From contig JAJDCB010000024.1 in the NCBI GenBank assembly GCA_029261065.1, forward strand, positions 12,129-76,128: a DNA stretch of 64,000 nucleotides, in the 5' to 3' direction. The position numbers were made by a program, and so were the translations under genes. Source of the DNA: Candidatus Omnitrophota bacterium. Lineage in GTDB: Bacteria; Omnitrophota; Gorgyraeia; Zapsychrales; Zapsychraceae. The notes below the pieces were generated by a model. It saw nothing but the letters and a program-made list of their open reading frames with translations. It searched no databases and was not told the DNA's origin. Shown one piece after another: positions 14,018-33,834 of this stretch. The first letter of the stretch is position 1. Every line of letters begins with the position of its first letter.

Positions 14018-14141
14018 ACACCCTTTTTATGATTTGTGTAATAAATCCTCTTACTTCTCTAAAGTATAACATATTGAACCTGCTTTAACATAGAGAAACA
14101 AGATAAATTAAGTTGTAACAGATTACGGCACAGAGGGTTGA

Positions 14142-15800: not shown

Positions 15801-15808
15801 AAATAGGA

Positions 15809-17194
15809 TTATTCAAATATTTTCATAAATCGACTAATTTTATTTTCAATTTCTTCCCACTCCTCTTCCAACTTTGATCCTTCCACAATGCCAGCTCCAG
15901 AATAAAGGGAAAGATGATTGTTTTGCACAAGGCCTGAGCGAATGGCTACAGCAAATTCGCTTGTGTTATATCCTACATAGCCCATGGGTGCTGCATACCA
16001 TCCGCGATCAAAGGGTTCTAATTTGTCAATGGTATCAATGGCCTCTTTAAGAGGTGTTCCGGCAACAGCGGGTGTGGGATGTAAATGTTTTAAGATTGCA
16101 TCATCATGTTTGTCAGTTAGGAGTTTTGCTTCAAAGCGTGTGATAAGATGTTGAGTGCCTTTAAGGGTTAGAACCTGACAGTCTGGATTGTCATTTAAAA
16201 TCTCAGCCAGTTTAGCAAGAGAATCTTTGATTGAGGAAACAACATACTGGTGTTCTAACATATTTTTGGATGATGTTAAAAGCTCTTGAGCAAAACGTGA
16301 ATCTTCTTCTTCATTGGCTCCCCTTCTAATCGTTCCTGCAATAGCCTCCGTCCACAGATGATTGTCATGACGTTTAAATAAGCGTTCGGGACTAGCACCA
16401 ATAAAAGCTAGATGTTCTTCTAATTGGAAACAAAAATGAAAACAGTTGGGGGTTTTTTCTTTGAGATGTTTTATCAGAGCGCTTGGACGGATATTGACAT
16501 CAAATTCGAAATTGCTTTCGCGGGCTAAAACAATTTTTTCGATATTTGAAGGTTTGTCCATAAAAGTATTAAAGATTTGGCTCCACTGCTCTTTATTCGG
16601 TTTATCTTCTCGGCTTACGATTGTCGGTGTTTTTCGAAAAGTCGTTTGATTAGAAAAGTCAATCGCATCACATTTTTTTAGCAATGAGGCTATGTTCTCA
16701 TCCGTAATATCTTTGAGGGCAATATTAAAGGCAAAAACAGTTTCCTTTTCATTTTTATAGTGACACACCTCAAATTGTGGAATGATAAAATGATACTTGC
16801 CAAACTTATACCATTGATCAGACTTTGCATCAGGATTAAAACGAAATCCTCCAAAGTATTTTACATGAGGATTATTCACAGACAGTTGATTGTTCATGTC
16901 TTTTAGAATGTCTTCTAATGACTTATTTTGATCATCGGTAATCTCATCAGCAATATGAATACCTGCGGTTTCAAAATCTCCACGACGATCAGACCAATAA
17001 ATTTTATTCGGGATATGTTGATTGTGCAGCCAGGTTAAACAGTTAATATCTTGGCATACAAATTCATAACGTAGAATTTCTTGAGGTGTTCCTATAAAAC
17101 TGACGGCTTGAGGTAAATTTTTTATGTGAGCGTAAAGTTTTTGTTGGAGTTCTGAAAGGGACAGTAAGGTGTTTGAGCGGAAAAGAGTAATCAT
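15809..17194 (-). CDS. menF: Isochorismate synthase (chorismate-binding enzyme)
   Basis: 461 aa; C-terminal chorismate-binding core (AGTIRRG..., PTPAVAGTP, FDRGWYAAPMGY, SGAGIVEGS). Immediately upstream of menD. Confidence 0.85.
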   Translation of the reverse strand: MITLFRSNTLLSLSELQQKLYAHIKNLPQAVSFIGTPQEILRYEFVCQDINCLTWLHNQHIPNKIYWSDRRGDFETAGIHIADEITDDQNKSLEDILKDMNNQLSVNNPHVKYFGGFRFNPDAKSDQWYKFGKYHFIIPQFEVCHYKNEKETVFAFNIALKDITDENIASLLKKCDAIDFSNQTTFRKTPTIVSREDKPNKEQWSQIFNTFMDKPSNIEKIVLARESNFEFDVNIRPSALIKHLKEKTPNCFHFCFQLEEHLAFIGASPERLFKRHDNHLWTEAIAGTIRRGANEEEDSRFAQELLTSSKNMLEHQYVVSSIKDSLAKLAEILNDNPDCQVLTLKGTQHLITRFEAKLLTDKHDDAILKHLHPTPAVAGTPLKEAIDTIDKLEPFDRGWYAAPMGYVGYNTSEFAVAIRSGLVQNNHLSLYSGAGIVEGSKLEEEWEEIENKISRFMKIFE

Positions 17195-17206
17195 AACAGA
17201 GAGCCG

Positions 17207-17932
17207 TTATTTATCCCCTTGATAAATCGTTGCCACACCAAAGAGCAGTTCATTGGCTTTGACATTTTTAAAGCCTTTATCTCTCATGAGCTGACAAAAT
17301 TGATCACCAAAAGGAAAAGATTCAATGGTTTGATTCAGGTATTTGTAGGCCTTGTAATGCCGGGAGATGATCCACCCAACAATTGGAACAATCGTGCGTA
17401 GGTAAAAGATGTGAAGAATGCGCATAATGATATTTTTAGGTAATGAAAATTCTAAGATGAGCGCTCGGCCCCCTTTATTGAGTACCCGATACATCTCTGC
17501 CATCACCTGAGTTGGGTCCTCAACATTGCGGATACCGAAAGAAATCGTCACGTTATGAAAGGTATTTTCATCAAAAGGAATGTTGTTGGCATCACCGTGT
17601 TGAAGGGTGATTTTGTTATCCAGATTTTTGGTCTTGATTTTTTCTCGACCAATTTCCAGCATTTTCTCAGCCATATCAATACCAATAGCTGATTCGATAT
17701 AAGGATGTTGCTCAAATAAACTTAATAAAACATCTCCCGTACCTGTCGCCAAATCAAGTAATTTTGGATTCTCGCCTAAAACCAAAAAACGACCTAATTT
17801 TTTGCGCCACACAATGTCCAATCCAAAGGACAATAAATGGTTTAAAAGGTCGTATTTCGGCGAGATGGCATTAAACATCTGCCAAGATTCAGATTTTTCC
17901 AGCGCTAATTTTTGATTTGGAGATTTTGTCAT
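17207..17932 (-). CDS. ubiE: Demethylmenaquinone/ubiquinone C-methyltransferase
   Basis: 241 aa; class I SAM-MTase motif LDLATGTGD with the UbiE/MenG-type N- and C-terminal regions. Confidence 0.85.
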   Translation of the reverse strand: MTKSPNQKLALEKSESWQMFNAISPKYDLLNHLLSFGLDIVWRKKLGRFLVLGENPKLLDLATGTGDVLLSLFEQHPYIESAIGIDMAEKMLEIGREKIKTKNLDNKITLQHGDANNIPFDENTFHNVTISFGIRNVEDPTQVMAEMYRVLNKGGRALILEFSLPKNIIMRILHIFYLRTIVPIVGWIISRHYKAYKYLNQTIESFPFGDQFCQLMRDKGFKNVKANELLFGVATIYQGDK

Positions 17933-18059: not shown

Positions 18060-18989
18060 TTAAGATAAAAACTGTTCGGCTTCAAGGGCGGCCATGCAGC
18101 CTGTTCCAGCGGCTGTAATTGCCTGGCGATAAACTTTATCTTGAACATCACCACAAGCAAAAACACCTGGGATATTTGTTTTTGTTGTTCCATTTTGAGT
18201 GATGACGTAACCGGTATCATCGCATTCAATTTGATTCTCTAGAAAAGAGGTATTGGGGATGTGACCAATGGCATAAAACAAGCCATTAGCATCAACGATG
18301 GATTCTTCTTGCGTTTTATTATTGATGAGGCGCACCTGCGCTAAAGCCTTGTCTCCAATAGCCTCAAGTATTTCTGTATTCCATTTGACTTCTATTTTTT
18401 CATTAGAAAGCAATCGATCTTGCATGACCTTTGATGCGCGTAGAGCATCGCGTCTAACGCAGACAATAACTTTGGATGCGTATTTCGTTAAATAGCCCCC
18501 CTCTTCAACAGCAGAATCCCCGCCTCCAATAACGACAAGAACTTTATCGCGAAATATCGGTAGCGCCCCATCACAGACGGCACAGGCAGAAATTCCTCTT
18601 TGCCATAACGTATCCTCACCTTTAATGTGAAGACGTTTAGCTGTTGCTCCTGTCGCTAAAATGATAGATTTGGACTCAATTGTTTCTGATCCAACAAAGA
18701 CTTTAAATGGGGATGAGCTTAGATCTACTTTATCGACAGTGGCGGTTTTGATGCGAGATCCACAGTTTAGGGATTGTTGGCGCATGTTATCCATAAGTTC
18801 CGGACCTGAGACACCATTAGGAAATCCTGGATAATTTTCGACTTCAGTCGTCGTCGTTAATTGTCCACCTGCAGCAACCCCTGCGGCCATCATCCCTTCA
18901 TACATCAAAGGTTCTAATTTGGCGCGTGCGGTGTAAATAGCAGCGGTATGAGCAGCTGGACCTGATCCAATAATTATGACGTTTTCCAT
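18060..18989 (-). CDS. trxB: Thioredoxin reductase (NADPH)
   Basis: 309 aa; FAD motif IIGSGPAA, redox-active CAVCDG and an NAD(P) binding motif. Confidence 0.9.
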   Translation of the reverse strand: MENVIIIGSGPAAHTAAIYTARAKLEPLMYEGMMAAGVAAGGQLTTTTEVENYPGFPNGVSGPELMDNMRQQSLNCGSRIKTATVDKVDLSSSPFKVFVGSETIESKSIILATGATAKRLHIKGEDTLWQRGISACAVCDGALPIFRDKVLVVIGGGDSAVEEGGYLTKYASKVIVCVRRDALRASKVMQDRLLSNEKIEVKWNTEILEAIGDKALAQVRLINNKTQEESIVDANGLFYAIGHIPNTSFLENQIECDDTGYVITQNGTTKTNIPGVFACGDVQDKVYRQAITAAGTGCMAALEAEQFLS

Positions 18990-19068
18990 AAGCGAAGATT
19001 ATAGCAGTTAAATTTATAGGGTCAATTTAAAAATGCTACAGACTTTAAGCAGATTTAAGGAAGGATTG

Positions 19069-19971
19069 TTAAATTTTAAAGGTTTTAAACAAATCAGCTA
19101 TAGGTTGACTAGGAGTCTCTTTGGTTTGGTTGATTAAAATCTGATCGTAGCGTGGTTTATTGGGATCTACATAAAATAGGCCGAAATAAGGACGCTCGCT
19201 GCTTGCAAATTTAAAGGCCTCTTCTTTGTTCGTTGGATCATGCTTAACAACTTCCGTTTTGCCAACCAATCTTTTATCAGGAGCAATGCCTTTGTCATCT
19301 TCAAGAAAAGAAAACCAGCTTGATGTTTTATGATCGAAATTGTTTGGATCAAAATGAGGACAGCGCTGTGAGACGTGGACGAAAGAAAATCCTTTATGCG
19401 CGAAGGCTGCTTTTAACGTATTTGTTAAATGATCTGGCATCCAATCCGCTGTACTTGCGACAAAAGATCCGCCAATCCCTAAAACTAAACTAACAGCATG
19501 AATCGGATCTAAATAAGAACCGGCTGGTTGTGTATTTGTTTTGTGACCTTTTCGAGTTGTCGGAGATGTTTGACTTTTGGTTAAGGCATAAAGTTCGTTG
19601 TCATACATAATAAATACACAATTGAAATTTTTGTTAACGCCATGAATAAGATGACATCCCCCAATACTCATCGCATCGCCATCACCGGAGTGAATAAAAA
19701 GATTAAGTTCTGGGCGTGCTAAGGCTAATCCCATAGCAACGGGAATCGCTCGTCCATGAATAGAATGAACCCCGTAAGTATCAATGTAAAAAGAAGCACG
19801 TCCTGAACAACCTATGCCTGAGACATTCACCGTTTCATGCGCTGTTAATTGAGCATCAACCATAAAACGTTTAACAGCCATAATAATACTAAAGTCACCG
19901 CAACCCGCACACCATCTTGGGCTTTCTGTGTTGAGATCTTTTACTGTCAAAGGTTCTGTTTGAGCGGACAT
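19069..19971 (-). CDS. korB: 2-oxoglutarate/2-oxoacid:ferredoxin oxidoreductase beta subunit (ThDP-binding)
   Basis: 300 aa; CxGCGD motif near the N-terminus and GDGD ThDP motif. Start overlaps the korA stop (19971). Confidence 0.8.
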   Translation of the reverse strand: MSAQTEPLTVKDLNTESPRWCAGCGDFSIIMAVKRFMVDAQLTAHETVNVSGIGCSGRASFYIDTYGVHSIHGRAIPVAMGLALARPELNLFIHSGDGDAMSIGGCHLIHGVNKNFNCVFIMYDNELYALTKSQTSPTTRKGHKTNTQPAGSYLDPIHAVSLVLGIGGSFVASTADWMPDHLTNTLKAAFAHKGFSFVHVSQRCPHFDPNNFDHKTSSWFSFLEDDKGIAPDKRLVGKTEVVKHDPTNKEEAFKFASSERPYFGLFYVDPNKPRYDQILINQTKETPSQPIADLFKTFKI

Positions 19972-21785
19972 TATTTTAAAATCTCCTTTATTTCATTTTC
20001 AATAGTCTGAGGTGAAATGGGTCTTCCTGTTGCTCGACAAACCATAGGTTCAATATCAACAAGAGTTTTTGAGCGTAAGAACATAGCTAATGGTGTTCGT
20101 TTGTACTCATCACCATAGGCCATTTCAACGGTAACGACTTTTTTGAATTTTGAAAAAATTTCTTTTAACATTAAAGGCAAAGGATACACGACGCGAAAAC
20201 ACATCCCTCCAACCTTTAGGCCTTGATCTTGACAAGAATGAACGGCCTCAGCGATAGACCCACGCGTTGTTCCCCAACCAACCACTAACAATTCGCCTTC
20301 TTCAACTCCTCCAAATAACTCTGGAGCACGTAGGGCTCGTTGGACGTGGTGCACTTTTTCGTTACGAACAGCATGAGAGCGTTGATTGGTTTTAGCAAAA
20401 TAATTAACAGATCCAGATTTGTCGGTATTTAAACCGGTGACACGTCTCATTTGACCAGGTGTGCCTGGATTGGCTTGGATATCGCGAACCATCTCAATAT
20501 TATCAGGAAGCCGGTCCATCCAGAAATGATCAAGGATGTAGTCAGGAATATCATCAACATCTTTTAGTTCGCATGTTTTTGGTTTCTCGATGACTTTATA
20601 ACTATTGGCCATAATAAAATCACTCATAATAAAAACAGGCAACCGTAATTTTTCCGTTAAGTATCTCGCGAAAGCTGGCGCGTAAAAACAATCAAGAACA
20701 TTTCCAACCCCAATGACAATTTTTGTATGATCGCCGTGAGCTCCAAAAATGGCGGCGGTTAAATCGGATTGTTCTGTTTTAGTAGGCATCCCCGTCGATG
20801 GACCGGAACGTTGCACGTCAATAATAATGATGGGGATTTCGGCAACGCCTGCATAACCAATAAATTCTTGTTTTAAGGATAACCCAGGACCTGAGGTCGC
20901 TGTGGCTGCGGGGACGCCTCCAAAATAGGATCCAAGGGCTGTTCCAATGGCTGAGATTTCATCTTCAGCTTGATGAACCATCCCTCCATATGATGGAGAC
21001 ACTTTAGCGAGGGTGTGCATGATAGACGATGCTGGTGTAATGGGATAACCGCTTAAAAGTTTAACACCGGCATCAATGAGACCTAAACTCAATGCGGTAT
21101 TACCATCAATTAAAATACGATCTTTATCATCTGAAGGTTTTCCAGCAATTTCATAAGAGTGTTGAAAATTTGTTGAGGCATGTTCATGGCCGTAATGAAA
21201 AATTTTGATGTTTTTATCATAAACTTCAGGGGCTAAACGTTTACCAAAAATCGCTGTTATTTCATCAATCATAAATTCTTCAGGCACACAATAAATAGCG
21301 CTAAGCATGCCAAGATAATACATATTGCGCCCCTTACCTCCTAAAGCCTTGATGAGCATTTGCGCTTCAGCAGAGAGTTCAAAGGGATAAACGTTAATTC
21401 CATTTTTTGAGGCTCTTTTACAAACCTGTTCATAAGAATCTTCGTTAGACGCTTTGTAGCCCATATCTAATAAAATTTTACAATCTGGACTGTATTCTTC
21501 ATCATCTAAACGGCGGTCAAGGACAATTTCATGTTGGGCAATAATAAGGTCGGTATCATTCCCTATATTTTTAAGGTCGAATTCGGCGGTACGGACAATA
21601 ACACCAGATAGGGCTGGACGGGAACGTGCAGGCGGGCTGATTTCTGCTGGAATCATAGGTTCAATAAAAACATATTTTCCCATGTGGGCAAAAGCGCGAA
21701 TCAAAATATCCCCTGCCTTCTGGGCCCCGAATCCAGCATCCATCAAGAGTTCAAATCTTGAGACCTTCAAATTTTCTTTTGACAT
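19971..21785 (-). CDS. korA: 2-oxoglutarate/2-oxoacid:ferredoxin oxidoreductase alpha subunit
   Basis: 604 aa; OFOR alpha-subunit domain order, with conserved GYPITPAS and TATSGPG motifs. Confidence 0.8.
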   Translation of the reverse strand: MSKENLKVSRFELLMDAGFGAQKAGDILIRAFAHMGKYVFIEPMIPAEISPPARSRPALSGVIVRTAEFDLKNIGNDTDLIIAQHEIVLDRRLDDEEYSPDCKILLDMGYKASNEDSYEQVCKRASKNGINVYPFELSAEAQMLIKALGGKGRNMYYLGMLSAIYCVPEEFMIDEITAIFGKRLAPEVYDKNIKIFHYGHEHASTNFQHSYEIAGKPSDDKDRILIDGNTALSLGLIDAGVKLLSGYPITPASSIMHTLAKVSPSYGGMVHQAEDEISAIGTALGSYFGGVPAATATSGPGLSLKQEFIGYAGVAEIPIIIIDVQRSGPSTGMPTKTEQSDLTAAIFGAHGDHTKIVIGVGNVLDCFYAPAFARYLTEKLRLPVFIMSDFIMANSYKVIEKPKTCELKDVDDIPDYILDHFWMDRLPDNIEMVRDIQANPGTPGQMRRVTGLNTDKSGSVNYFAKTNQRSHAVRNEKVHHVQRALRAPELFGGVEEGELLVVGWGTTRGSIAEAVHSCQDQGLKVGGMCFRVVYPLPLMLKEIFSKFKKVVTVEMAYGDEYKRTPLAMFLRSKTLVDIEPMVCRATGRPISPQTIENEIKEILK

Positions 21786-21964: not shown

Positions 21965-23059
21965 TTAGGAGAGTGTGGGTCTTAAATCTTTAAGATCTTT
22001 CATGGAGAGCTCTGAGGGATTTTTTTCTGTTGCAGGGTAGTTGATTTTTGATGCAGCATCAATAAGTTGATTTAAATCTTGTGACGATTCAATATCAAAA
22101 CCAGCTTCTTTGATCATGCGAAGTGTTTTTAAGGTGTGCGATCCTTTTGTATTTAGATAACCATCAAGGAATAATGAGTTAGCTGGATACAAAGATAATA
22201 CCTCTAAATCTTTTAAGTGATATTCTCGACCAGCAGCAACACGAATTTCAGCTTTAGGATTTAAGAAACGAAATAAAGATAAGACTCGTAAACAAAAATC
22301 TGGAGTTAAAGGAGTTTGTTTTTTTATCGTGTTACCTTCAATGGGAATAAAAAAGTTTACAGGAATGGATGCCACTTGCATTTCATTTAACGTGTAGGCA
22401 ACATCGATAATGTCTTTAAGCGATTCATTCATGCCAACGATAATTCCCGAACATAAAGATATACCTTCTGTGCGAGCGGCTTTTAAAGTATTTAAACGAT
22501 CTTCGTAAGTGTGCGTTGTACAAATTTCAGGGTAATGTTTTTCAGAAGTATTTAAATTATGATTAAGCCGATCAAGCCCCGCTTCTTTTAACACCTTTGC
22601 TTTCATCTGATCTATTAGTCCTGCTGAGACACAAATTTCAAGTGGATATTGCGATTTTATTTTTTGAATTAATTGCGCCAGATGTTCAACGCGTTTCATC
22701 GAAGGCCCTCTTCCTCCAAAAACCATACAATAACGATGCGCCCCTTTTTCATATGCATTTTTAGCCTCAGCCAATATTTCTGATTCACTCTTTATAGGGT
22801 ACTCTTCAATTTTTGAATCGGACGTTTTCGCCTGGGCACAATAGTGGCAATCTTCGGGACAAAAGCCATTTTGGGCATTATTAATGATATGAATAGTGAC
22901 CGTTTTGCCACAATATTTTTTCCTAACATCATATGCTGCATGGATTAATGATAATAGTTCAATGTCCTTTGATTGCAAAATGTCAAGGGCTAGGCTTTTC
23001 TCAATGGTTTGAGAGTTTATCGCTTTATCAGTAAGATCTGTGTAATAGGATCGATTCAT
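21965..23059 (-). CDS. bioB: Biotin synthase (radical SAM)
   Basis: 364 aa; GFCPEDCHYCAQ radical-SAM/BioB cysteine motif, YCMVFGGRGP, NHNLNTS, CSGIIVG and AGRE, all colinear with E. coli BioB. Confidence 0.8.
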   Translation of the reverse strand: MNRSYYTDLTDKAINSQTIEKSLALDILQSKDIELLSLIHAAYDVRKKYCGKTVTIHIINNAQNGFCPEDCHYCAQAKTSDSKIEEYPIKSESEILAEAKNAYEKGAHRYCMVFGGRGPSMKRVEHLAQLIQKIKSQYPLEICVSAGLIDQMKAKVLKEAGLDRLNHNLNTSEKHYPEICTTHTYEDRLNTLKAARTEGISLCSGIIVGMNESLKDIIDVAYTLNEMQVASIPVNFFIPIEGNTIKKQTPLTPDFCLRVLSLFRFLNPKAEIRVAAGREYHLKDLEVLSLYPANSLFLDGYLNTKGSHTLKTLRMIKEAGFDIESSQDLNQLIDAASKINYPATEKNPSELSMKDLKDLRPTLS

Positions 23060-23242
23060 AATAAGTCCATTATTTGCTATTATTTAGGTGTTTTTTCTAC
23101 GGCCCGTCTAGGGTTGTCTCTCCGTAAAATGTATGCTATTCTATTATAAATAAGCTTGTTTTGCAAACTCTTCTAGAAAAAAACAAATTCCAAAGTTTAT
23201 GAAAAATATCTTGAATTCTTAAAGCAGCGCTTTAATATATAT

Positions 23243-25117
23243 TTGAGATATAAATTTAAAGAGAATATTATTATGGTTGTCAAAATTCACTCCTTTCATA
23301 TCCCTGTTATGGGTTCGGCTTTCTCTATTGATACGCCGATCAAGGTAGCTCAATACGGTATATCCTCTGTTATTTCTTTAGTGGATGATGCTCTTATTGA
23401 ACAAATGCGCCAACATTATGCCAAAATGGTCGGTGAAGAGTATACGCCCATTACGAAATATGATGAAGATTTTCGAGCGCAACGCATTAAAGAATATCTG
23501 AATCTAGTTCATCGCATCGTTAAACAAAAGTTTGAAAAAGTCAAAAATTCTTCCTTTGAAACGGGTAGCGAAATTGTTAAATATTTTGAATCTCTGCCTG
23601 AAAATTCTATTCTTAAAGCACAATATTTAAAAATGTTAGACGTAACTGATCCAAAATTGAAAGCGGTCTTACAAGAAAGACTTCGTAACGAAATGCAGCC
23701 AGGTAGTATTGATGTTAATATTATGACAAAACTGGATAAAACGAATTATGCAAAGGATCGAACAGAACTTCCTTCTGAGTATTCAGATGCCCTTGCGGCT
23801 CTTCGCGGTTATGCGGAAAGTTCTCTGGATTCGGCGATAGTTTTCTCCGCGGGTATTAACCGTCGTCTTTATAGTTATGTTGAAAAATTTAAAGATTTTT
23901 ATGCCGATGCCACAGGTCATATCAAGAAAAAAATTATATTAAAGGTAAGTGATTATCGGTCCTCTTATATTCAAGGTCGATTTTTCGCTAAAAAGGGTTT
24001 GTGGGTCTCTGAATACCGTATTGAATCAGGTCTTAATTGTGGAGGCCATGCCTTCGCCTCTGATGGTTATCTTATGGGGCCGATGTTAGATGAATTTAGA
24101 CGACGCAAAGACGAATTATGTACAACTCTTTACAAAATTTATAATGATGCTTTAAAAGCTAAGAATAAAGACACTTTTGATCAACCTCATGCTTTAAAGG
24201 TTACGGCTCAGGGTGGTATTGGGACGGCCAAAGAAAATAACTTCTTAATGAATTATTTTCAAATTGATGGTACAGGCTGGGCGACACCCTTTTTACTTGT
24301 TCCTGAGGTTACTAATGTCGATGGGCCGACACTTGAAAAATTATCCGAAGCCACTCAAAAAGAATTGTATTTAAGTGATGTCTCCCCTTTAGGAGTGCCT
24401 TTTAATAACATAAAAGGAAGTTTTAGTGATACCGAAAAAGAACGTAAAGCTACGACAGACAAGCCTGGTAGTCCTTGTCCAAAAGGGCATTTGATTTCTA
24501 ATACAGAGTTTACAAAAATACCTATCTGTACGGCTTCAAGGCAATATCAGAAACTAAAATTTGATCAACTCAAAGCCATGAATTTATCAAAGGCTGCTTT
24601 TGATGAGAAATATACGCAGATGACAAAAAAGGCCTGTATTTGTAATGACTTGGGTGAGGCGGCTTTAATCAAAAACGATATTGATCAAAAACCAAATATC
24701 AAACGGTTTTCAGCAATATGCCCTGGTCCAAATTTAGCTTATTTTACGAAAGTGACTTCTTTTAGTGAGATGGTGAGTCATATCTATGGTCGAATGAATC
24801 TATTGAATAATACCTATCGACCCAATATGTTTATTAATGAATTAAAGATGTATATCGATTATTTTAAAAAGGAAGTTCAAAAAATAGCTATTGAGCCAAC
24901 AGAAAAACAAGTTAAGTATTTAAATGAATTTAAAATAAATATGTTAGAGGGTATTGATTTTTATAAAGAGTTTTTTCCAAGGATGGTAGAGGAAACTCAA
25001 GACTATCGTAATCGGGCGTTAACAGAACTGAACAGCTATAAAAAGAAACTAGAAGAGTTTCTTTCCGAACACTCCAACATCTTCTCAAACTCTCTTCCAC
25101 CGATGCTCGTTGTGTAA
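23243..25117 (+). CDS. Large hypothetical protein with a divergent NMO/FabK-like FMN TIM-barrel N-terminal half plus a unique C-terminal ~250 aa
   Basis: 624 aa. PVMGSAFS...AQYGISSVISL (cf. PIIQAPMAGVS...AVSNAGGLG), NCGGHAF (cf. EAGGH) and TAQGGIGT...TGWATPFLLVPE (cf. AAGGI...MGTRFL..ES) are colinear with nitronate monooxygenase / enoyl-ACP reductase FabK family motifs. Divergently transcribed from bioB. Possible alternative start at 23273. Confidence 0.4.
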   Translation: MRYKFKENIIMVVKIHSFHIPVMGSAFSIDTPIKVAQYGISSVISLVDDALIEQMRQHYAKMVGEEYTPITKYDEDFRAQRIKEYLNLVHRIVKQKFEKVKNSSFETGSEIVKYFESLPENSILKAQYLKMLDVTDPKLKAVLQERLRNEMQPGSIDVNIMTKLDKTNYAKDRTELPSEYSDALAALRGYAESSLDSAIVFSAGINRRLYSYVEKFKDFYADATGHIKKKIILKVSDYRSSYIQGRFFAKKGLWVSEYRIESGLNCGGHAFASDGYLMGPMLDEFRRRKDELCTTLYKIYNDALKAKNKDTFDQPHALKVTAQGGIGTAKENNFLMNYFQIDGTGWATPFLLVPEVTNVDGPTLEKLSEATQKELYLSDVSPLGVPFNNIKGSFSDTEKERKATTDKPGSPCPKGHLISNTEFTKIPICTASRQYQKLKFDQLKAMNLSKAAFDEKYTQMTKKACICNDLGEAALIKNDIDQKPNIKRFSAICPGPNLAYFTKVTSFSEMVSHIYGRMNLLNNTYRPNMFINELKMYIDYFKKEVQKIAIEPTEKQVKYLNEFKINMLEGIDFYKEFFPRMVEETQDYRNRALTELNSYKKKLEEFLSEHSNIFSNSLPPMLVV

Positions 25118-25130: not shown

Positions 25131-26957
<1,827 letters not shown>

Positions 26958-27001
26958 TCATTATAAGGGTAATAAGGTGATACATCAAGTGATTGGAAAA
27001 C

Positions 27002-27905: not shown

Positions 27906-28289
27906 TTAACTAAAAGATGTTCCGCATCCACAGCTATTTTGTGCATTTGGATTTTTGTACTGAAAGCCACTTGCTTTTAAGGTATCCAGATAATCGATTT
28001 TTAGTCCTTTTAAAAAAGCAATGCTTTCGGGATTTACTAAGATTTTAATATCAGTATGTTCAATGATAATATCATTATCATAAGGTTTTTTCTGGAATCG
28101 TAAATCATAAGATAATCCAGCACAGCCGCCCGTAACAACAGCCACCCTAAGCGAATAGCCCACCTTATCTTCTTTGGCCATCATAGATTTAATCTTCGCC
28201 ACAGCGGAATCTGTTAAGACAATATTTGGATTTTCTACTTGATTTTTATTTTCTTGTTTTTCTTCTGACATAGTTAAAATATAACACAC
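27906..28289 (-). CDS. Fe-S cluster insertion protein (HesB/IscA/ErpA family, A-type carrier)
   Basis: 127 aa; C-terminal SCGCGTSF motif and an earlier conserved Cys (GGCAG). Confidence 0.85.
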   Translation of the reverse strand: MCYILTMSEEKQENKNQVENPNIVLTDSAVAKIKSMMAKEDKVGYSLRVAVVTGGCAGLSYDLRFQKKPYDNDIIIEHTDIKILVNPESIAFLKGLKIDYLDTLKASGFQYKNPNAQNSCGCGTSFS

Positions 28290-28342: not shown

Positions 28343-29770
28343 CTAACGCAAATTAACAGTTTGACCATCCGCAATACTTCCAACAACAAAAGGACCAAAG
28401 TTTAATCTTGCGGATTGGCCGTCTGCTGTGACATCAATGCTAATATCAAAACTCGTGCCATTAGCTGTTCCGGCAGGTATATCTAGATCCATATCTGAAG
28501 CGTTATCGGTTTGTGTGGTTCCTCCTGGTGGGGCATTGCTAAGAGTTGCATCTGTATTATGCGTAAAACTCCAGCCATTGGATACCTGCGCATTGCTATA
28601 GCTTATACCCGTGGAGGTGACTGTTCCTAAATTTACTAAAAGAAAATCGATCTCAAAACCATCCCCTGCTTGTACGAAACCATCACCATTGACATCCAGA
28701 CAACCAGAACAATTCACCCCTGGAAAACGTGTGGCGAGTTGAATATTAGTTAAGTTGCCTAAAACATTTTTACTATCTGAACTTTTCTCAACAACAATAT
28801 TAAAATTTCTTTCAACACGATCCAATAAGAGATCTTTTAAATCAATTTTTGGATAAGCTGTTTTTGAAAATTTGATCTCTTCGAGAATATCAGCAGGTTT
28901 CAAACTATTAATAGCAAATTTAAATCGCGCATCAACGCGATAATTCGTTTCTGCTAATTCATTATTAAAGGCTTGAAGGTTGATTGTAAATATATCTTTG
29001 GCTGATATTTCGGCTCGATGTGTCCAAGTTCTTAAATCCTCTGAATTTTTAAAATAATATCGTGTAAACCCTTCATATAATTTCAACCATGGTGCGTAAG
29101 GAACCCTCCCCCCAAGCTCAAGATCGAAACCATCAGCAGCCTCTTCATAGAAATTATTAAAAAACGTTTTTTTAACTAACTTTCTTCCAGAGTGGGCATT
29201 ATAAAGATTAAGGCGTCCTTCAATATTGTCACTTAACACCTCAAATCCAAGGCCTGTACGATAATGTATATTTAGGGATTGATAGTCAAAAAATCCATTA
29301 ATACCAAGGATCCATTCTTCATCCATGACAAGTCGTCGATAGCCAAGACCAACACTTCCCTTAAACTCACCATCGCCCTCACTAGAAACACGATCATGTG
29401 TAAATACGGTATGCCTTTTGTCAGTTGACTGATATATCGGCAGGACGGTTTCTATATAGTATTGCGGATGAGGGTTCACGGTATCATCATAGATAAGACC
29501 AAAATCGACATGCTTGAGAATTAAATCCAACCACTCTTCAGGATCGTCTGGTCTATATTTTTGTGTTGTATCCTCTTCATCGACATAGATCGGCTCTAAT
29601 TCTAAATATAACTGCTTGGCTTCATATTTTTCTATTTCATCAAGCTCATTGTTTATGATGTTATGACGTCGTTTTTGATATCTTTGATTGAATTCCGCTG
29701 AAGAGAAGGAATATTCGAAGAGAAATATACTAAAGATGATAATAATAGCGCAGTTTAATTTAGTTTGCAT
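28343..29770 (-). CDS. Inverse autotransporter-like outer-membrane protein (intimin/invasin-type beta-barrel with short C-terminal Ig-like passenger)
   Basis: 475 aa; signal peptide. Central region LGINGFFDYQSLNIHYRTGLGFEVL...RLNLYNAHSG...GFDLELGGRVPYAPWLKLYEGFTRYYF resembles the intimin/invasin beta-domain. Gly/Thr/Asp-rich C-terminus. Confidence 0.5.
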   Translation of the reverse strand: MQTKLNCAIIIIFSIFLFEYSFSSAEFNQRYQKRRHNIINNELDEIEKYEAKQLYLELEPIYVDEEDTTQKYRPDDPEEWLDLILKHVDFGLIYDDTVNPHPQYYIETVLPIYQSTDKRHTVFTHDRVSSEGDGEFKGSVGLGYRRLVMDEEWILGINGFFDYQSLNIHYRTGLGFEVLSDNIEGRLNLYNAHSGRKLVKKTFFNNFYEEAADGFDLELGGRVPYAPWLKLYEGFTRYYFKNSEDLRTWTHRAEISAKDIFTINLQAFNNELAETNYRVDARFKFAINSLKPADILEEIKFSKTAYPKIDLKDLLLDRVERNFNIVVEKSSDSKNVLGNLTNIQLATRFPGVNCSGCLDVNGDGFVQAGDGFEIDFLLVNLGTVTSTGISYSNAQVSNGWSFTHNTDATLSNAPPGGTTQTDNASDMDLDIPAGTANGTSFDISIDVTADGQSARLNFGPFVVGSIADGQTVNLR

Positions 29771-29863: not shown

Positions 29864-30991
29864 TTATCCTTTTGATATCGAGTTTTTTGCCTTCTCTCGG
29901 CCATAAGAAGTCAACATCAACTTATCACCCTGCTTTTTGATTAAACCTTCTTGAATGCTTTGGGCAATAACTTCTGAAGTATATTGTTTGGACCAGGACA
30001 TATGATCCTCCATATGACCAGTGATAAGTTCGGTGGCTTCAGCATGGGACCACTCGGCTTGTAATAAATGGACAGAGAGCGTTGATGCGCCAAAATCCCA
30101 ACGTGTCCATTTTTTTACAATGAATTTGGCTAATAAGCCATTTTCAGGAGCAAAGATGAGAATGATGAAAAATATAACACCAGAAACAGTTGCCATAGAA
30201 CCAGCAATGTTTGCATCAAATATTTGTGCTGTAAAGTAACCTCCGATGGCAGAAATAACTCCTAAGCCTGCACTAATAAAAAGCATGTGTGAAAGGCGGT
30301 TCGTTAAAAGATAGGCTGATGAGGGTGGTACGATCATTAAAGCAACAACAAGAATGGAGCCTACGGATTCAAAGGCACCAACAGCCGTAATGCTAACTAA
30401 CGTCATTAATCCATAATGAATGACAGCAGGAAATAAACCAAGCGATGCTGCTAAGCCAACATCAAAAGTAGCAATCTTTAATTCTTTGTAGAAGAGTGAA
30501 ATAAAAATTATGTTAAGGGCCAATATTCCAGCCATAATCCACATACTTTGTGGGCCAATATCAACGCCTCCAACAATAAGTCGGTTAAACGGGGTGAATG
30601 CTATTTCACCAAATAAAACACAATCCGCATCAATATGGACGGTGTTCGCAAATTGATTAATCAGAATGACACCAATGGAAAACAATAAGGGAAACACAAT
30701 TCCAATCGCTGCATCCTTTTTTAGTTTACGTGTTTTTATAATAAGTTCTGTGAGTGTTACGGTTAACAATCCTGTTATGGTCGCGCCTACAATGAGTAAA
30801 GGTGAAGATAGGTTTTTTGTTACAAAAAAAGCAAGTACAATACCTAACAAAATGGCATGGCTAATGGCATCGCTCATTAATGCAACGCGCCTGAGCACAA
30901 GAAACACGCCAGGCAACGCGCAGGCGACTGCCGTTAAACTTGCTAAAATCATGATTTCAACTTGTGGACTGATCATATATTTTATCCTCAA
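29864..30991 (-). CDS. Metal (Mn/Zn/Fe) ABC transporter permease, ABC-3 family, with ~90-aa C-terminal cytoplasmic winged-helix-like extension (YtgD-like position)
   Basis: 375 aa; about 8 TM segments typical of ZnuB/MntD/TroD. Hydrophilic tail with ...GLIKKQGDKLMLTSYGREKA. Confidence 0.8.
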   Translation of the reverse strand: MRIKYMISPQVEIMILASLTAVACALPGVFLVLRRVALMSDAISHAILLGIVLAFFVTKNLSSPLLIVGATITGLLTVTLTELIIKTRKLKKDAAIGIVFPLLFSIGVILINQFANTVHIDADCVLFGEIAFTPFNRLIVGGVDIGPQSMWIMAGILALNIIFISLFYKELKIATFDVGLAASLGLFPAVIHYGLMTLVSITAVGAFESVGSILVVALMIVPPSSAYLLTNRLSHMLFISAGLGVISAIGGYFTAQIFDANIAGSMATVSGVIFFIILIFAPENGLLAKFIVKKWTRWDFGASTLSVHLLQAEWSHAEATELITGHMEDHMSWSKQYTSEVIAQSIQEGLIKKQGDKLMLTSYGREKAKNSISKG

Positions 30992-32102
30992 ATTCTCGTG
31001 TAAGTCTTTTGGCCATACGTAATCCTTCAGGTGTTAAAGCCCAACGCCTATCTGCAAATTGCTGAGCCATCCCCTTTTTTGAAAGTTCCATCATTGTTTT
31101 ATTGATGGCCCCCCTTCCTATCGCATCAAGTGCTGCAATATCGTGCGGATGAAAAGGGTCTGTATTAATTTCAGAAAATAACATTAAATTCTTTAACATT
31201 GATGTGAGACGGATATTTTTTCGATGTTTCTGCATGCGGACATAATCCGATAAGATACCTCTGTTGGGTGCTAGAAATAATGAAAACATAACAATAAGGC
31301 TAACAAAAACTACAATAGTTGGTCCTGTTGGTAAATTAGGAATAAGGCTGCTGGTGAGAGCGCCTGCCATTCCTGAAAGAGCTCCAAATGTTGCCGATAA
31401 TAACACCATGATACTTAATTTGTCTGTCCATTGGCGGGCGGCAGCAGCGGGAGCCACAAGCATAGCACTCATTAAGACAACACCAACCGTTTGTAATCCA
31501 ATCACAATGGTAACAACAATAAGCGTTGTCAGAATAATGTCTAACCAATTGATCCGATAGCCAATACTTTGAGCAAAATCTTTATCAAAAACAATAATTT
31601 TAAATTCTTTCCATAATAAAAAAAGCACGACAAAAACTATCGCGCTTAGAATCATCATCGTGTGTAAATCTTCTTTTAATAGGGTTGCGGCATTGCCAAA
31701 TAAAAATTTATCTAACCCCGCCTTAGAAGCAGAAGGTAGCCGTTGAATCATGGTCAGTAACATCAAACCAAATCCAAAAAATACAGACAGAATGATGCCT
31801 AGTGCAGCATCTTTTTTGATGCGTGAGTGATGAGTGATGAGCATGACTAAAAGTGTACCAATCCAACCAGCAATTCCTGCTCCAATGAGTAATATTAAAG
31901 GGGCTTTGCTTTGCGTTATGATAAAGGCTAAACATACGCCTGGTAATGTGGCGTGGCTTATCGCATCACCTAGTAAACTTTGTTTACGTAATACGGCAAA
32001 GGCGCCTAAGCTTCCAGCGGAGATTCCAATTGTGAGGGATCCTAATAAAACAACTTGTAAGGTGTAATCACTAAATATTTGATGTATGAAGGAAAAATTC
32101 AC
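30957..32102 (-). CDS. Metal ABC transporter permease, ABC-3 family, fused to a C-terminal DtxR-like winged-helix domain (YtgC-YtgR-like architecture)
   Basis: 381 aa; ABC-3 permease core followed by ...DAIGRGAINKTMMELSKKGMAQQFADRRWALTPEGLRMAKRLTREFE, which resembles the DtxR/MntR N-terminal DNA-binding domain. Confidence 0.75.
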   Translation of the reverse strand: MNFSFIHQIFSDYTLQVVLLGSLTIGISAGSLGAFAVLRKQSLLGDAISHATLPGVCLAFIITQSKAPLILLIGAGIAGWIGTLLVMLITHHSRIKKDAALGIILSVFFGFGLMLLTMIQRLPSASKAGLDKFLFGNAATLLKEDLHTMMILSAIVFVVLFLLWKEFKIIVFDKDFAQSIGYRINWLDIILTTLIVVTIVIGLQTVGVVLMSAMLVAPAAAARQWTDKLSIMVLLSATFGALSGMAGALTSSLIPNLPTGPTIVVFVSLIVMFSLFLAPNRGILSDYVRMQKHRKNIRLTSMLKNLMLFSEINTDPFHPHDIAALDAIGRGAINKTMMELSKKGMAQQFADRRWALTPEGLRMAKRLTREFEDKIYDQSTS

Positions 32103-32875
32103 TTTTTAACATCCTCTTCATCTTTGCCAGCTAAAAACGCTGCTCGTCCTCCATAAGCTCCTCGTAGATTCTCCGGGGTAAGGACAGTTGTGACGGAACC
32201 TAAGGCAATACGTCTAATATTCAGTAACATGACCCAATCAAAATATTCTTTAAGGGTTTGTAAATCGTGATGGACACATATAACAGTTTTGTTATTTTGT
32301 TTAAGTTCTCGTAATAATTCGATAATGCTTTTCTCCGTTGTGGCATCTACACCAGCAAACGGTTCATCCATTAAATATATGGGGGCATCTTGCATAAAAG
32401 CGCGCGCTATAAAGACACGTTGTTGTTGACCGCCGGATAATTGACTTATTTGCCGATTAACGAAATCAGCCATGCCGACTTTCTCTAAACATTGAAAAGC
32501 TAATCTTTTTTCTTCTTTTCCAGGACGCTTAAACCAACCTAACTGACCGTAGCCCCCCATCATGACAACATCAAGAACGTTTGTTGGGAAATCCCAATCA
32601 ACGGTGCCTCGTTGAGGCACATAACCAATAAGCCGAGATTGAGGTTTATATTCTTTACCCATTACTAAAACTTGACCAGCAGCAGGTTTAATTAATCCTA
32701 AGATGGTTTTAATGAGTGTTGATTTCCCTGCACCATTTGGTCCAACGATGGCTAATAATTTTCCTTGAGGCGCCTGAAAATCAACATCCCAGAGAACCGG
32801 TTTCTCACGGTAGGCCACGGTTAAGTCATGAACATCAATGGCAGATAAAGTTTTTTGTTTTGTTTTAGCATTCAT
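32099..32875 (-). CDS. Metal ABC transporter ATP-binding protein (ZnuC/MntB/TroB family)
   Basis: 258 aa; Walker A GPNGAGKST, ABC signature LSGGQQQR, Walker B LMDEP. Confidence 0.9.
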   Translation of the reverse strand: MNAKTKQKTLSAIDVHDLTVAYREKPVLWDVDFQAPQGKLLAIVGPNGAGKSTLIKTILGLIKPAAGQVLVMGKEYKPQSRLIGYVPQRGTVDWDFPTNVLDVVMMGGYGQLGWFKRPGKEEKRLAFQCLEKVGMADFVNRQISQLSGGQQQRVFIARAFMQDAPIYLMDEPFAGVDATTEKSIIELLRELKQNNKTVICVHHDLQTLKEYFDWVMLLNIRRIALGSVTTVLTPENLRGAYGGRAAFLAGKDEEDVKK

Positions 32876-32895
32876 TTATTCATCTCCAATAACGC

Positions 32896-33810: not shown

Positions 33811-33834
33811 AAATAACCTCTAATTTAAATTAAG

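What the first reader, a model, noticed from the sequence alone, without database searches (positions are those of the whole stretch)
21965..25117. bioB without other bio genes, divergently paired with a 624-aa NMO/FabK-like protein of unknown function
bioB has no bioA/D/F/C/H neighbours. The divergent gene encodes a large protein whose N-terminal ~330 aa carry the three signature motifs of FMN-dependent nitronate monooxygenase / enoyl-ACP reductase FabK / PUFA-synthase ER enzymes in the correct order. Several insertions are present, and a unique ~250-aa C-terminal helical region follows. Shared divergent promoter space (23060-23242) contains a small GC-rich hairpin (~23078-23110). Possibly an enoyl-reductase-like enzyme feeding the pimeloyl moiety to biotin synthesis, or an unrelated redox enzyme; either way it is an uncharacterised architecture.
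Basis: inference. Interest (0 to 1): 0.6.

Follow-up and report, generated by a model that had tools for sequence, protein, structure and literature searches.

The report
Uncharacterised FabX-like flavin/iron-sulfur enzyme beside bioB
Next to an ordinary biotin synthase gene lies a 614-residue protein from a very large, unnamed family that is a distant relative of the FMN enzymes FabK and FabX of fatty-acid synthesis, probably carries an added iron-sulfur site, and shows no convincing functional link to biotin.

Summary
Both genes exist. The gene at 21965-23059(-) is a bona fide BioB. The divergent gene is real but starts at 23273, giving 614 aa rather than 624.

It hits no Pfam, NCBIfam or PDB sequence model. 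An AlphaFold model built with homologues (pLDDT 93.5) matches H. pylori FabX best, then PfaD, trans-AT PKS enoyl reductases, FabK and NMO (Foldseek E 1e-10 to 1e-6). A profile-profile comparison with FabX-like fragments gives 91.6% probability.

The "unique" C-terminus is conserved across the family. It holds four invariant and one near-invariant cysteine, probably an Fe-S site. The family has at least 8000 clusters at 90% identity, all "hypothetical".

At least 14 clusters carry a natural fusion to an NADPH diflavin reductase, which implies electrons are fed into the enzyme. Fusions to a PlsC acyltransferase and to TetR hint at a lipid-like substrate.

The bioB<>X><thiC arrangement is conserved only within Omnitrophota. 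About 90 loci elsewhere have no bioB; some lie by cbb3 oxidase, hemN, fnr-type regulators or nrdJ. The intergenic hairpin is not significant.

Verdict: a new variant of the NMO/FabK/FabX superfamily. The substrate is unknown and the biotin link is unsupported.

The parts
21965..23059 (-). bioB, biotin synthase (364 aa). Radical-SAM motif C67-x3-C71-x2-C74. Auxiliary-cluster ligands C111, C143, C203 and R278.
   Evidence: TIGR00433 equivalog 367 bits (cut-off 225), PF04055 and PF06968. Cys/Arg positions read from the sequence. Their equivalence to E. coli C97/C128/C188/R260 rests on my own knowledge.
23060..23272 (.). Divergent intergenic region. No conserved element or significant structure was found.
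   Evidence: RNA fold z -0.43 (+ strand) and -0.63 (- strand). Mean column identity is 47% and there is no conserved block across 6 Omnitrophota loci. No Rfam hit. Promoter-like hits are not above shuffles: 14 found against 9.9 +/- 3.2 expected.
23273..25117 (+). Gene X, 614 aa: an uncharacterised member of the NMO/FabK/FabX superfamily. The in-frame TTG at 23243 (624 aa) is not the supported start.
   Evidence: The exact 614-aa sequence is in public data as P0155. Homologues align from residue 15 or so of the 624-aa ORF. AF2 model pLDDT 93.5, pTM 0.93. Foldseek top hits are FabX, PfaD, DfnA-ER, FabK and NMO.
23273..24307 (+). Residues 1-345: predicted FMN-binding TIM barrel.
   Evidence: Alternating strand/helix pattern in the model. 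Fold hits. Conserved G14, N149, M151, E251, S252, G257, G258, H259, Q313, G314, G315 and G335 correspond by order and spacing to the FabX FMN contacts listed in PMC8626469.
23387..23692 (+). Residues 39-140: helical insertion (lid-like) between barrel strands 2 and 3.
   Evidence: Helices 39-52, 67-91, 100-106, 113-123 and 127-140 in the model. The insertion is present in all family members.
24011..24049 (+). Residues 247-259, E-Y-R-I-E-S-G-L-N-C-G-G-H: active-site loop with the NMO-type histidine (H259) and a near-invariant cysteine (C256).
   Evidence: E247, R249, E251, S252, N255, C256, G257, G258 and H259 are conserved in at least 50 of 52 diverse representatives. FabX E175...S179-G180-x-H182 is the catalytic/FMN loop. 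The equivalence is by inspection only.
24209..24403 (+). Residues 313-377: QGGIGT...GTGWATPFLLVPE...SPLGVPF. This is the FMN phosphate-binding motif plus the start of the C-terminal subdomain.
   Evidence: hhalign of A1 against FabX-like fragments: probability 91.6%, E 8e-7, X 311-391. phmmer of family member P0081 against the PDB ranks FabX best over this stretch, though not significantly (E 0.11). PF03060 gives a sub-threshold hit on P0081.
24467..24730 (+). Residues 399-486: cysteine-rich subdomain with C402, C419, C455, C457 and C483. Probable [4Fe-4S] site (or another Fe-S or metal site).
   Evidence: C402, C419 and C457 occur in 175/175 sequences, C455 in 174/175 and C483 in 173/175. Precedent: FabX holds a [4Fe-4S] cluster in the equivalent C-terminal subdomain. 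Metal binding itself was not testable here.
24827..25084 (+). Residues 519-604: bundle of three long helices. Poorly conserved in sequence but present in most members.
   Evidence: Helices 519-538, 544-570 and 576-599 in the model. There are only weak, non-significant amphipathic-helix matches to ApoA-I.
25131..26915 (-). thiC, convergent with X. Part of the synteny block conserved in Omnitrophota.
   Evidence: NF006763 1020 bits. It lies adjacent to X in about 15 Omnitrophota loci.
18060..21785 (-). trxB, korB and korA (thioredoxin reductase and 2-oxoacid:ferredoxin oxidoreductase). These are the other conserved members of the block.
   Evidence: Pfam/NCBIfam hits. Synteny in L002, L022-L026 and L035.
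27906..28289 (-). A-type Fe-S carrier (IscA/ErpA-like). Distal member of the block.
   Evidence: tblastn orthologues in 9 Omnitrophota loci. Those genes carry PF01521.

Best explanation
Gene X (23273-25117) encodes a cytoplasmic oxidoreductase from a large, unnamed family. The family is a deep branch of the NMO/FabK/FabX FMN TIM-barrel superfamily.

Proposed mechanism:
1. FMN sits in the barrel, held by the conserved PVMG.G, VNIM, E..ESG.NCGGH, QGG.G and GWxTPF motifs.
2. A C-terminal subdomain with four invariant and one near-invariant cysteine binds an Fe-S cluster, most likely [4Fe-4S]. It occupies the place where FabK binds NAD(P)H, as in FabX.
3. The enzyme therefore does not take hydride from NAD(P)H directly. 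It is reduced one electron at a time by flavodoxin or ferredoxin. In the fused forms the donor is a built-in NADPH-FAD-FMN diflavin reductase.
4. Reduced FMN then acts on a carbonyl-activated C=C/C-C bond, with H259 and C256 as acid/base. This would be an ene-reduction, or the reverse or an isomerisation, of an acyl-thioester-like and probably lipid-type substrate.

Status of the steps: the fold and the motif conservation are shown. Cofactor binding, electron direction and substrate class are inferred.

Its position next to bioB is lineage-specific synteny in Omnitrophota, not a biotin function.
For: Fold:
- AF2 model pLDDT 93.5.
- Foldseek against the PDB: FabX E 8e-11 to 6e-9 (TM normalised by target length 0.63-0.68). 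PfaD, DfnA/MlnA ER, FabK and NMO give E 3e-10 to 4e-6. Other FMN TIM barrels (TMADH, OYE) and IMPDH give only E of about 1e-3 or weaker.

Sequence:
- hhalign probability 91.6%, E 8e-7, to FabX-like fragments over X 311-391.
- The conserved residues parallel the FabX FMN contacts and His182.

Fe-S site:
- C402, C419, C455 and C457 are invariant and C483 occurs in 173/175 sequences.
- FabX carries a [4Fe-4S] cluster in the equivalent subdomain, which replaces FabK's NAD(P)H site.

Electron input:
- X fused to Flavodoxin_1, FAD_binding_1 and NAD_binding_1 occurs in at least 14 clusters at 57-83% identity, on independent assemblies.
- Family members occur in strict anaerobes such as Desulfosarcina BuS5, so the chemistry cannot be obligately O2-dependent.

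Lipid hint:
- All functionally known close fold relatives except NMO and the NADH:quinone reductase PA1024 act on acyl-ACP.
- There is a PlsC-type acyltransferase fusion on 2 assemblies and TetR fusions in at least 4 clusters.

Not biotin:
- bioB is adjacent only in Omnitrophota.
Against: - No cofactor was observed.
- The Cys spacing (C-x16-C-x35-C-x-C-x25-C) is unlike FabX's CX3CX3CX11C. A zinc or structural site is not excluded.
- PF03060 does not recognise the protein.
- None of the 144 immediate neighbours in non-Omnitrophota loci was reported as a fab, ACP or lipid family. The census lists only the 25 commonest of 156 families, and the maximum recurrence of any family is 4.
- Enoyl-thioester reduction does not need a low-potential one-electron donor.
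- The nearest solved relative, FabX, runs in the opposite (dehydrogenase) direction.
- The PlsC fusion was seen in one cluster only.
Confidence: 0.55

Rival explanations
1. X is a functional analogue of FabX/UfaA. It would be an O2-independent acyl-ACP dehydrogenase/isomerase, or a redox-neutral enoyl isomerase that merely needs reduced FMN. Its role would be to make unsaturated fatty acids or modify lipids when O2 is scarce.
For: - FabX is the best structural hit and the only close relative with an Fe-S subdomain.
- In one Bacteroidota clade X lies at the end of, or divergent from, the cbb3-oxidase cluster ccoI-ccoNO-ccoP-ccoG-fixH. hemN (TIGR00538, 427 bits), Fnr/Crp-type regulators, Usp and a D-LDH-like gene lie beside it.
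- nrdJ is near X in four separate clades, and U32/RIC/hemN genes are near it in L047.
- A paper held in the library states that the Neisseria FabX homologue is needed for anaerobic unsaturated fatty-acid synthesis with an unknown electron acceptor (PMC11300592).
- PlsC fusion.
Against: - The NADPH-diflavin fusion points to electron input. Oxidising an acyl thioester cannot reduce NADP+ (thermodynamic argument from my own knowledge).
- Canonical FNR boxes upstream of X are not enriched: 4 of 110 loci against 3.0 +/- 1.8 in shuffles.
- The low-O2 neighbourhood is seen in only about 20 of about 90 loci, and the immediate-neighbour census is diffuse.
- Bacteroidales already have a true FabX.
Confidence: 0.15
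2. One reading: X is an enoyl-reductase-like enzyme dedicated to biotin synthesis, for example making the pimeloyl moiety, and is co-regulated with bioB from the shared divergent promoter region.
For: - The divergent bioB<>X arrangement with a 90-230 bp spacer is kept in about 11 Omnitrophota loci, and the two genes are within 4 kb in 4 more.
- The fold is that of fatty-acid-synthesis enzymes, and pimelate is made by modified fatty-acid synthesis (my own knowledge).
Against: - None of about 90 non-Omnitrophota loci has bioB within 7-10 kb.
- thiC, korAB and trxB are conserved in the same block, so the synteny is not specific to biotin.
- In L001, L037, L038 and L040 a 1060-aa gene separates bioB from X.
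- The intergenic region has no conserved operator.
- Omnitrophota bio genes are scattered and partial.
- BioB acts after the pimelate stage.
Confidence: 0.05
3. X is an electron-transfer or maintenance partner for radical-SAM and Fe-S enzymes. It would supply or relay low-potential electrons to BioB, ThiC, HemN and others, rather than being a metabolic enzyme with a small-molecule substrate.
For: - X is flanked by two radical-SAM genes (bioB, thiC) plus korAB and iscA throughout Omnitrophota.
- In Desulfosarcina BuS5 it sits among five radical-SAM genes: a glycyl-radical activase, a B12-rSAM, an AhbD-like gene, thiC and rimO.
- hemN lies beside it in Bacteroidota.
- There is a surface Fe-S site by analogy with FabX.
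Against: - The substrate-type active-site loop (N255, C256, H259) and the lid insertion are near-invariant, which argues for a bound small molecule.
- The diflavin fusion would already be a complete electron donor without X.
- These associations were noticed post hoc. With about 12 independent contexts examined at that point, I estimated by hand, not from a tool, that some shared neighbour family is expected by chance at roughly p = 0.1.
Confidence: 0.08
4. X acts in nucleotide, pterin or RNA metabolism. Examples would be a DHODH/DPD-like dehydrogenase or a base-modifying reductase.
For: - Recurrent neighbours include nrdJ in 4 clades, a QueD/PTPS-family gene in L013, L043, L088 and L047, DEAD-box helicases, RimO, RlmL and the CCA-adding enzyme.
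- An FMN barrel plus a catalytic-type Cys plus Fe-S plus an NAD(P)H-flavin module is also the architecture of class 1B DHODH and of DPD (my own knowledge).
Against: - DHODH, DPD and Dus structures are absent from the top 50 fold hits, whereas NMO-family hits are eight orders of magnitude better.
- The pI is unremarkable, with a median of 7.9 and an often acidic tail.
- Each of these neighbours occurs in only 2-7 loci.
Confidence: 0.07

Closest known systems
FabX (HP0773), H. pylori decanoyl-ACP dehydrogenase/isomerase, PDB 7E1Q
   Same: - Best structural match: E 8e-11 to 6e-9, TM 0.63-0.68 over the FabX length.
- NMO-type FMN TIM barrel, with equivalents of the FMN-contact motifs and of His182.
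- A C-terminal subdomain after an SP.G.P motif carries cysteines. In FabX this subdomain holds a [4Fe-4S] cluster and replaces the NAD(P)H site of FabK.
   Different: - Only about 15% identity.
- X is about 250 aa longer, with a 100-aa helical insertion after strand 2 and a terminal three-helix bundle.
- The Cys pattern is C-x16-C-x35-C-x-C-x25-C, not CX3CX3CX11C.
- PF03060 does not detect X.
- Natural fusions to an NADPH diflavin reductase imply electron input, whereas FabX exports electrons.
FabK (enoyl-ACP reductase II) and NMO/NADH:quinone reductase PA1024 (Pfam PF03060)
   Same: Same barrel and same FMN motifs. Foldseek E 1e-8 to 4e-6.
   Different: - These enzymes are 310-370 aa, have no Fe-S site, and use NAD(P)H (FabK, PA1024) or O2 (NMO) directly.
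- X fails the PF03060 gathering threshold.
PfaD and trans-AT PKS enoyl reductases (DfnA-ER, MlnA-ER); ER domain of fungal and mycobacterial FAS I
   Same: NMO-type FMN barrel elaborated with extra helical domains. Foldseek E 3e-10 to 1e-4.
   Different: - They are embedded in, or dock to, megasynthases and are NADPH-dependent, with no conserved Cys cluster.
- X is a stand-alone gene with no PKS or PUFA-synthase neighbours.
FadH (2,4-dienoyl-CoA reductase), DPD and class 1B DHODH. These are 'works like' analogues only.
   Same: The X-diflavin fusions recreate the same logic: NAD(P)H, then flavin, then Fe-S, then an FMN TIM barrel, then the C=C of a carbonyl compound (my own knowledge of these enzymes; fusion).
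   Different: - They belong to different barrel families. OYE/TMADH fold hits reach only E 1e-3 to 3e-2.
- Their Fe-S motifs and reductase modules differ.

Membership tests
NMO / FabK family (Pfam PF03060) | Match to the family HMM at or above the gathering score | tested here: not met
   The window protein gives no PF03060 hit even at E <= 1. A divergent relative, P0081, scores 21.8 bits against a cut-off of 28.
NMO / FabK family (Pfam PF03060) | FMN-binding TIM-barrel fold of the NMO type | tested here: met
   The high-confidence model matches FabX, PfaD, FabK and NMO at E 8e-11 to 4e-6. Other TIM barrels score E >= 1e-3.
NMO / FabK family (Pfam PF03060) | Conserved FMN phosphate-binding motif (GG.G ... 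G..G.Q.GT.F) | tested here: met
   hhalign probability 91.6%, E 8e-7 over X 311-391. Q313-G314-G315 and G335...P339-F340 are conserved.
NMO / FabK family (Pfam PF03060) | Catalytic histidine in the E..GGH loop | tested here: inconclusive
   H259 in E251-S-G-L-N-C-G-G-H259 is conserved in 51 of 52 representatives. No residue-level structural alignment was available, so equivalence to FabX H182 is by inspection only.
FabK (enoyl-ACP reductase II) | Direct NAD(P)H binding and enoyl-ACP reduction | not testable with these tools
   By analogy with FabX, the Cys-rich subdomain occupies the NAD(P)H site. The diflavin fusions suggest an indirect NADPH supply.
FabX (dehydrogenase/isomerase) | [4Fe-4S] ligands C300-x3-C304-x3-C308-x11-C320 | tested here: not met
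   X has C402-x16-C419-x35-C455-x-C457-x25-C483. FabX ligands are from PMC8626469.
FabX (dehydrogenase/isomerase) | Close sequence relationship (the authors count homologues at more than 50% identity) | tested here: not met
   About 15% identity in the Foldseek alignment. phmmer E 0.11 for the best family member.
FabX (dehydrogenase/isomerase) | Bound FMN and [4Fe-4S]; activity on decanoyl-ACP | not testable with these tools
   Requires protein chemistry.
Biotin synthase BioB (neighbouring gene) | Equivalog HMM; CxxxCxxC radical-SAM motif; Cys3-Arg auxiliary-cluster ligands | tested here: met
   TIGR00433 367 bits against 225. C67/C71/C74 and C111/C143/C203/R278 are present. Their assignment to E. 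coli residues rests on my own knowledge.
Old Yellow Enzyme / FadH / TMADH FMN + 4Fe-4S enzymes | OYE-type barrel with a CxxCxxC...C cluster | tested here: not met
   Fold hits reach only E 1.5e-3 to 3e-2, with TM <= 0.35. No such Cys motif is present.

The most novel reading that the evidence does not exclude
The family is a previously unrecognised class of O2-independent enzymes driven by flavodoxin or ferredoxin, with FMN and [4Fe-4S]. It would be used under low oxygen to carry out a lipid (acyl-chain) desaturation, isomerisation or saturation step that aerobes do with O2-dependent enzymes. That would make it an evolutionary sister solution to FabX/UfaA. It would explain the position beside cbb3 oxidase, hemN, fnr-type regulators and nrdJ, the PlsC and TetR fusions, and the reductase fusions (needed to keep FMN reduced).
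Probability: 0.2. Interest if true: 0.8.

Novelty: new variant of a known kind. Interest (0 to 1): 0.55.

Why it matters
The family is very large: at least 8000 clusters at 90% identity and 1089 representatives at 50% identity. It spans Omnitrophota, Bacteroidota, Desulfobacterota, Ignavibacteria, Margulisbacteria and Kiritimatiellia-type genomes. It has no Pfam or NCBIfam model and is annotated everywhere as 'hypothetical'.

This work gives it a confident fold, a cofactor prediction, candidate catalytic residues, a predicted electron-donor type and natural fusion proteins. The fusions are ready-made self-sufficient enzymes for biochemical testing.

If the substrate is an acyl chain, the family would add a second Fe-S-containing branch to the FabK/FabX group. 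It could also fill gaps in anaerobic lipid metabolism in widespread environmental bacteria. For the original question, the result shows that the bioB neighbour is not evidence for a new biotin pathway.

Tried and rejected
- **HMM and PDB sequence searches.** Pfam, NCBIfam and PDB searches with the single protein and with the family profile gave nothing beyond spurious coiled-coil or ApoA-I matches.
- **Single-sequence AlphaFold.** The model was useless, pLDDT 36.6.
- **Homologue search.** The big homologue search failed twice. It then returned only 'hypothetical' relatives.
- **Fetching full-length FabX homologues.** A search from a 69-aa FabX fragment returned only short fragments. These were still usable for hhalign.
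- **Intergenic hairpin or operator.** Not significant and not conserved.
- **Rfam.** No hits in the whole window, so no riboswitch.
- **Conserved gene neighbourhood across phyla.** None was found in 16 genome loci. A census of 144 immediate neighbours found no family in more than 4 loci.
- **L007 neighbour as a thiamin or purine link.** I first suspected PurM or ThiL, but it is HypE.
- **Canonical FNR boxes upstream of X.** Not enriched.
- **Nucleic-acid-binding idea from pI.** No consistent basic character.
- **Plasmid collection.** No homologue.
- **Literature.** No paper describing the family was found. The Neisseria UfaA paper is not held.
- **Window heme-copper oxidase ORF against a cbb3 CcoN.** Pairwise phmmer found no hit, so the oxidase assignment rests on motifs only.

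Full report
**Observation**

The window has two divergent ORFs at the stated place: 21965-23059(-) and 23243-25117(+).

The minus-strand gene is an orthodox biotin synthase:
- TIGR00433 scores 367 bits against a cut-off of 225, with Radical_SAM and BATS domains.
- The CxxxCxxC motif lies at C67/C71/C74, and the Cys3-Arg set at C111/C143/C203/R278. The residue equivalences to E. coli BioB rest on my own knowledge.

The plus-strand gene is real but should start at the ATG at 23273, giving 614 aa. Homologues align only from about residue 15 of the 624-aa reading. The 614-aa sequence is the one on record.

No other bio gene turned up among the window ORFs that were scanned.

The window comes from an Omnitrophota genome. 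The closest loci are Omnitrophota MAGs, with X at 60-70% identity and ThiC at 76-80%. [quoted passage not shown] A lone bioB is therefore ordinary there.

**What the protein is**

Sequence models fail. No Pfam or NCBIfam family hits, including PF03060 NMO. No PDB sequence matches, with either the single protein or the family profile.

Yet the family is large and well conserved over its whole length:
- 1089 representatives at 50% identity with E <= 1e-3.
- At least 8000 clusters at 90% identity with E <= 1e-10, which was the candidate limit of the search.
- Every named member is called 'hypothetical'.

An AlphaFold model built with 38 family sequences is confident: pLDDT 93.5, pTM 0.93. The single-sequence model was useless.

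Foldseek against the PDB ranks the hits as follows:
- H. pylori FabX first: E 8e-11 to 6e-9, TM 0.63-0.68 over the FabX length.
- Then PfaD, the trans-AT PKS enoyl reductases DfnA and MlnA, FabK, NMO, and the ER domains of type I FAS: E 3e-10 to 1e-4.
- Other FMN or TIM barrels (TMADH, OYE, IMPDH, DAHP synthase) reach only E of about 1e-3 or weaker.

At sequence level, a profile of the family aligns to FabX-like fragments with 91.6% probability (E 8e-7) over residues 311-391. This stretch covers QGGIGT...GWATPFLLVPE...SPLGVPF. One divergent member gives a sub-threshold PF03060 hit on the same stretch.

The conserved residues are G14, N149/M151, E251-S252...N255-C256-G-G-H259, Q313-G314-G315 and G335...P339-F340. 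They follow the order and spacing of the FabX FMN contacts and catalytic His182 reported in PMC8626469.

The C-terminal 270 residues are not unique. They are conserved family-wide.
- C402, C419 and C457 are present in 175 of 175 full-length sequences.
- C455 is present in 174, and C483 and the active-site C256 in 173.

FabX carries a [4Fe-4S] cluster in the equivalent C-terminal subdomain, where FabK binds NAD(P)H. I therefore infer an Fe-S site here. The ligand spacing differs from FabX, and I could not check geometry because model coordinates are not exposed.

Other additions are a helical insertion at residues 39-140 and a poorly conserved three-helix tail at 519-604.

**Direction of electron flow and substrate class**

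Natural fusions are the most informative evidence:
- X is fused at its C-terminus to a flavodoxin-FAD-NADPH diflavin reductase of the CysJ/CPR type. This occurs in at least 14 clusters at 57-83% identity, on independent assemblies.
- In all known enzymes of that design, electrons run from NADPH into the partner domain (my own knowledge). Oxidation of an acyl thioester could not reduce NADP+. So X is most likely reduced by one-electron donors, which would be flavodoxin or ferredoxin in the stand-alone forms.
- Members occur in strict anaerobes such as Desulfosarcina sp. BuS5, so the chemistry is not obligately O2-dependent.
- A PlsC-type acyltransferase fusion occurs on two assemblies.
- TetR fusions occur in at least 4 clusters, and there is one glycosyltransferase fusion.

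Together with the acyl-ACP specificity of nearly all close fold relatives, these fusions hint at a lipid-type substrate. This is weak evidence.

**Genomic context**

Within Omnitrophota the block trxB-korB-korA-bioB<>X><thiC-(iscA) is kept in about 15 loci although the outer flanks differ. In four loci a 1060-aa gene is inserted between bioB and X.

Outside the phylum none of about 90 loci has bioB nearby.

X is usually a stand-alone gene. The first 16 genome loci share no neighbour. A census of 144 immediate neighbours finds no family in more than 4 loci and lists no fab or ACP family among the 25 commonest.

Some recurrent themes do appear:
- In one Bacteroidota-type clade (X 62-81% identical within the clade) the gene ends the cbb3-oxidase cluster, or is divergent from it. 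The cluster is ccoI-ccoNO-ccoP-ccoG-fixH-DsbD_2. hemN (TIGR00538, 427 bits), response-regulator/Crp-Fnr hybrids, Usp and a D-lactate-dehydrogenase-like gene lie beside it.
- nrdJ lies within 1-4 genes in four separate clades.
- L047 adds a U32 peptidase, a RIC/hemerythrin gene, QueD and hemN.
- In Desulfosarcina BuS5, X precedes thiC and sits among four other radical-SAM genes.

The common denominator may be 'low-oxygen or reduced-flavodoxin-dependent enzymes'. This reading is post hoc, and canonical FNR boxes are not enriched upstream of X: 4 of 110 loci against 3.0 +/- 1.8 in shuffles.

**Intergenic region**

The 213-nt spacer has no significant fold (z -0.43 and -0.63) and no conserved block among six Omnitrophota loci. 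There is no Rfam hit and no excess of promoter-like sites. The reported hairpin is a trivial short stem.

**Interpretation**

*Most likely (0.55).* X is an FMN plus Fe-S oxidoreductase of the NMO/FabK/FabX superfamily. It is fed by flavodoxin or ferredoxin, or by a fused diflavin reductase. It acts on a carbonyl-activated C=C/C-C bond of a probably lipid-like substrate, with H259 and C256 as acid/base. Fold and conservation are shown. Cofactors, electron direction and substrate are inferred.

*Rivals:*
- A FabX/UfaA-like dehydrogenase/isomerase for low-O2 lipid synthesis (0.15).
- An electron-relay role for radical-SAM enzymes (0.08).
- A nucleotide, pterin or RNA role (0.07).

**Comparison with known families and novelty**

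X works like FabX and FabK, and its fusions work like FadH, DPD and class 1B DHODH. It is not a member of PF03060 by the curated threshold. It is not a FabX orthologue: identity is about 15%, the Cys motif differs, it has 250 extra residues, and the inferred electron direction is opposite.

I classify it as a new variant of a known kind. Interest is moderate (0.55). The bioB pairing itself is ordinary lineage synteny. However, the family is very large, unnamed and now directly testable, especially through the self-sufficient fusion proteins.

Noticed in passing
window 8196-14017 (-): Three tandem paralogous ORFs of about 640-650 aa interrupt the menaquinone gene cluster. The one that was scanned carries a C-terminal Peptidase_S74 'chaperone of endosialidase' domain, which is typical of phage tail-spike or fibre-like surface proteins.
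   Followed up: partly
window 3407-17932: A menaquinone-type cluster lies next to the conserved block. It includes isochorismate synthase (15809-17194), UbiE/MenG methyltransferase (17207-17932), a UbiA-family prenyltransferase (6368-7348) and a 4HBT thioesterase (3407-3820). ORFs that are probably menD/B/C/E, judged by size and N-terminus, were not scanned. menF and ubiE are also adjacent in L002, L022 and L026.
   Followed up: partly
window 26916-27001 and whole window: There is no Rfam hit anywhere in the 64 kb at gathering thresholds. In particular no TPP riboswitch lies upstream of thiC, and there are no tRNA genes.
   Followed up: partly
window 59432-62988, 55185-58024, 1365-2516: An ORF with motifs of heme-copper oxidase subunit I lies at 60447-62195, but it was not HMM-tested and pairwise phmmer against a cbb3 CcoN was negative. 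Nearby ORFs that I guess to be heme A/O synthases were not scanned. Fe/Mn superoxide dismutase and Tpx/AhpC peroxiredoxins were confirmed. Together these suggest an O2-exposed Omnitrophota lineage, unlike the fermentative, oxidase-free Gorgyraeia described.
   Followed up: partly
window 29864-34287 (-): A metal ABC importer sits next to a Fur-family regulator; the regulator was confirmed by Pfam. The syntenic genes in L022 and L026 carry ABC-3, ABC_tran and ZnuA. The two permeases (375 and 381 aa) have C-terminal extensions of about 100 aa that look like a fused winged-helix or DtxR-like domain. This was not tested.
   Followed up: no
window 28343-29770 (-): A 475-aa protein with the beta-domain of an inverse autotransporter (intimin/invasin type) lies in an Omnitrophota genome.
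   Followed up: no
L001 6568-9750; also L037, L038, L040, L096, L024/L025: A conserved ORF of about 1060 aa with no Pfam hit recurs in Omnitrophota. In several genomes it is inserted between bioB and X.
   Followed up: partly
L004 3505-6891: The class II ribonucleotide reductase upstream of X in a Syntrophobacteraceae MAG carries an intein with a LAGLIDADG homing endonuclease.
   Followed up: no
L097/L104/L106 6512-6925 and 8786-9550: In the Bacteroidota cbb3 clade, X is bracketed by a conserved 116-135 aa ORF with no Pfam or NCBIfam hit and by a DUF1275 membrane protein. Both appear to be in the same transcription unit as ccoNO-ccoP-ccoG-fixH.
   Followed up: partly
window 52110-53627 (+): A B12-binding radical-SAM protein (505 aa) is followed by a small ferredoxin-like ORF at 53697-53981. 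The function is unknown.
   Followed up: no
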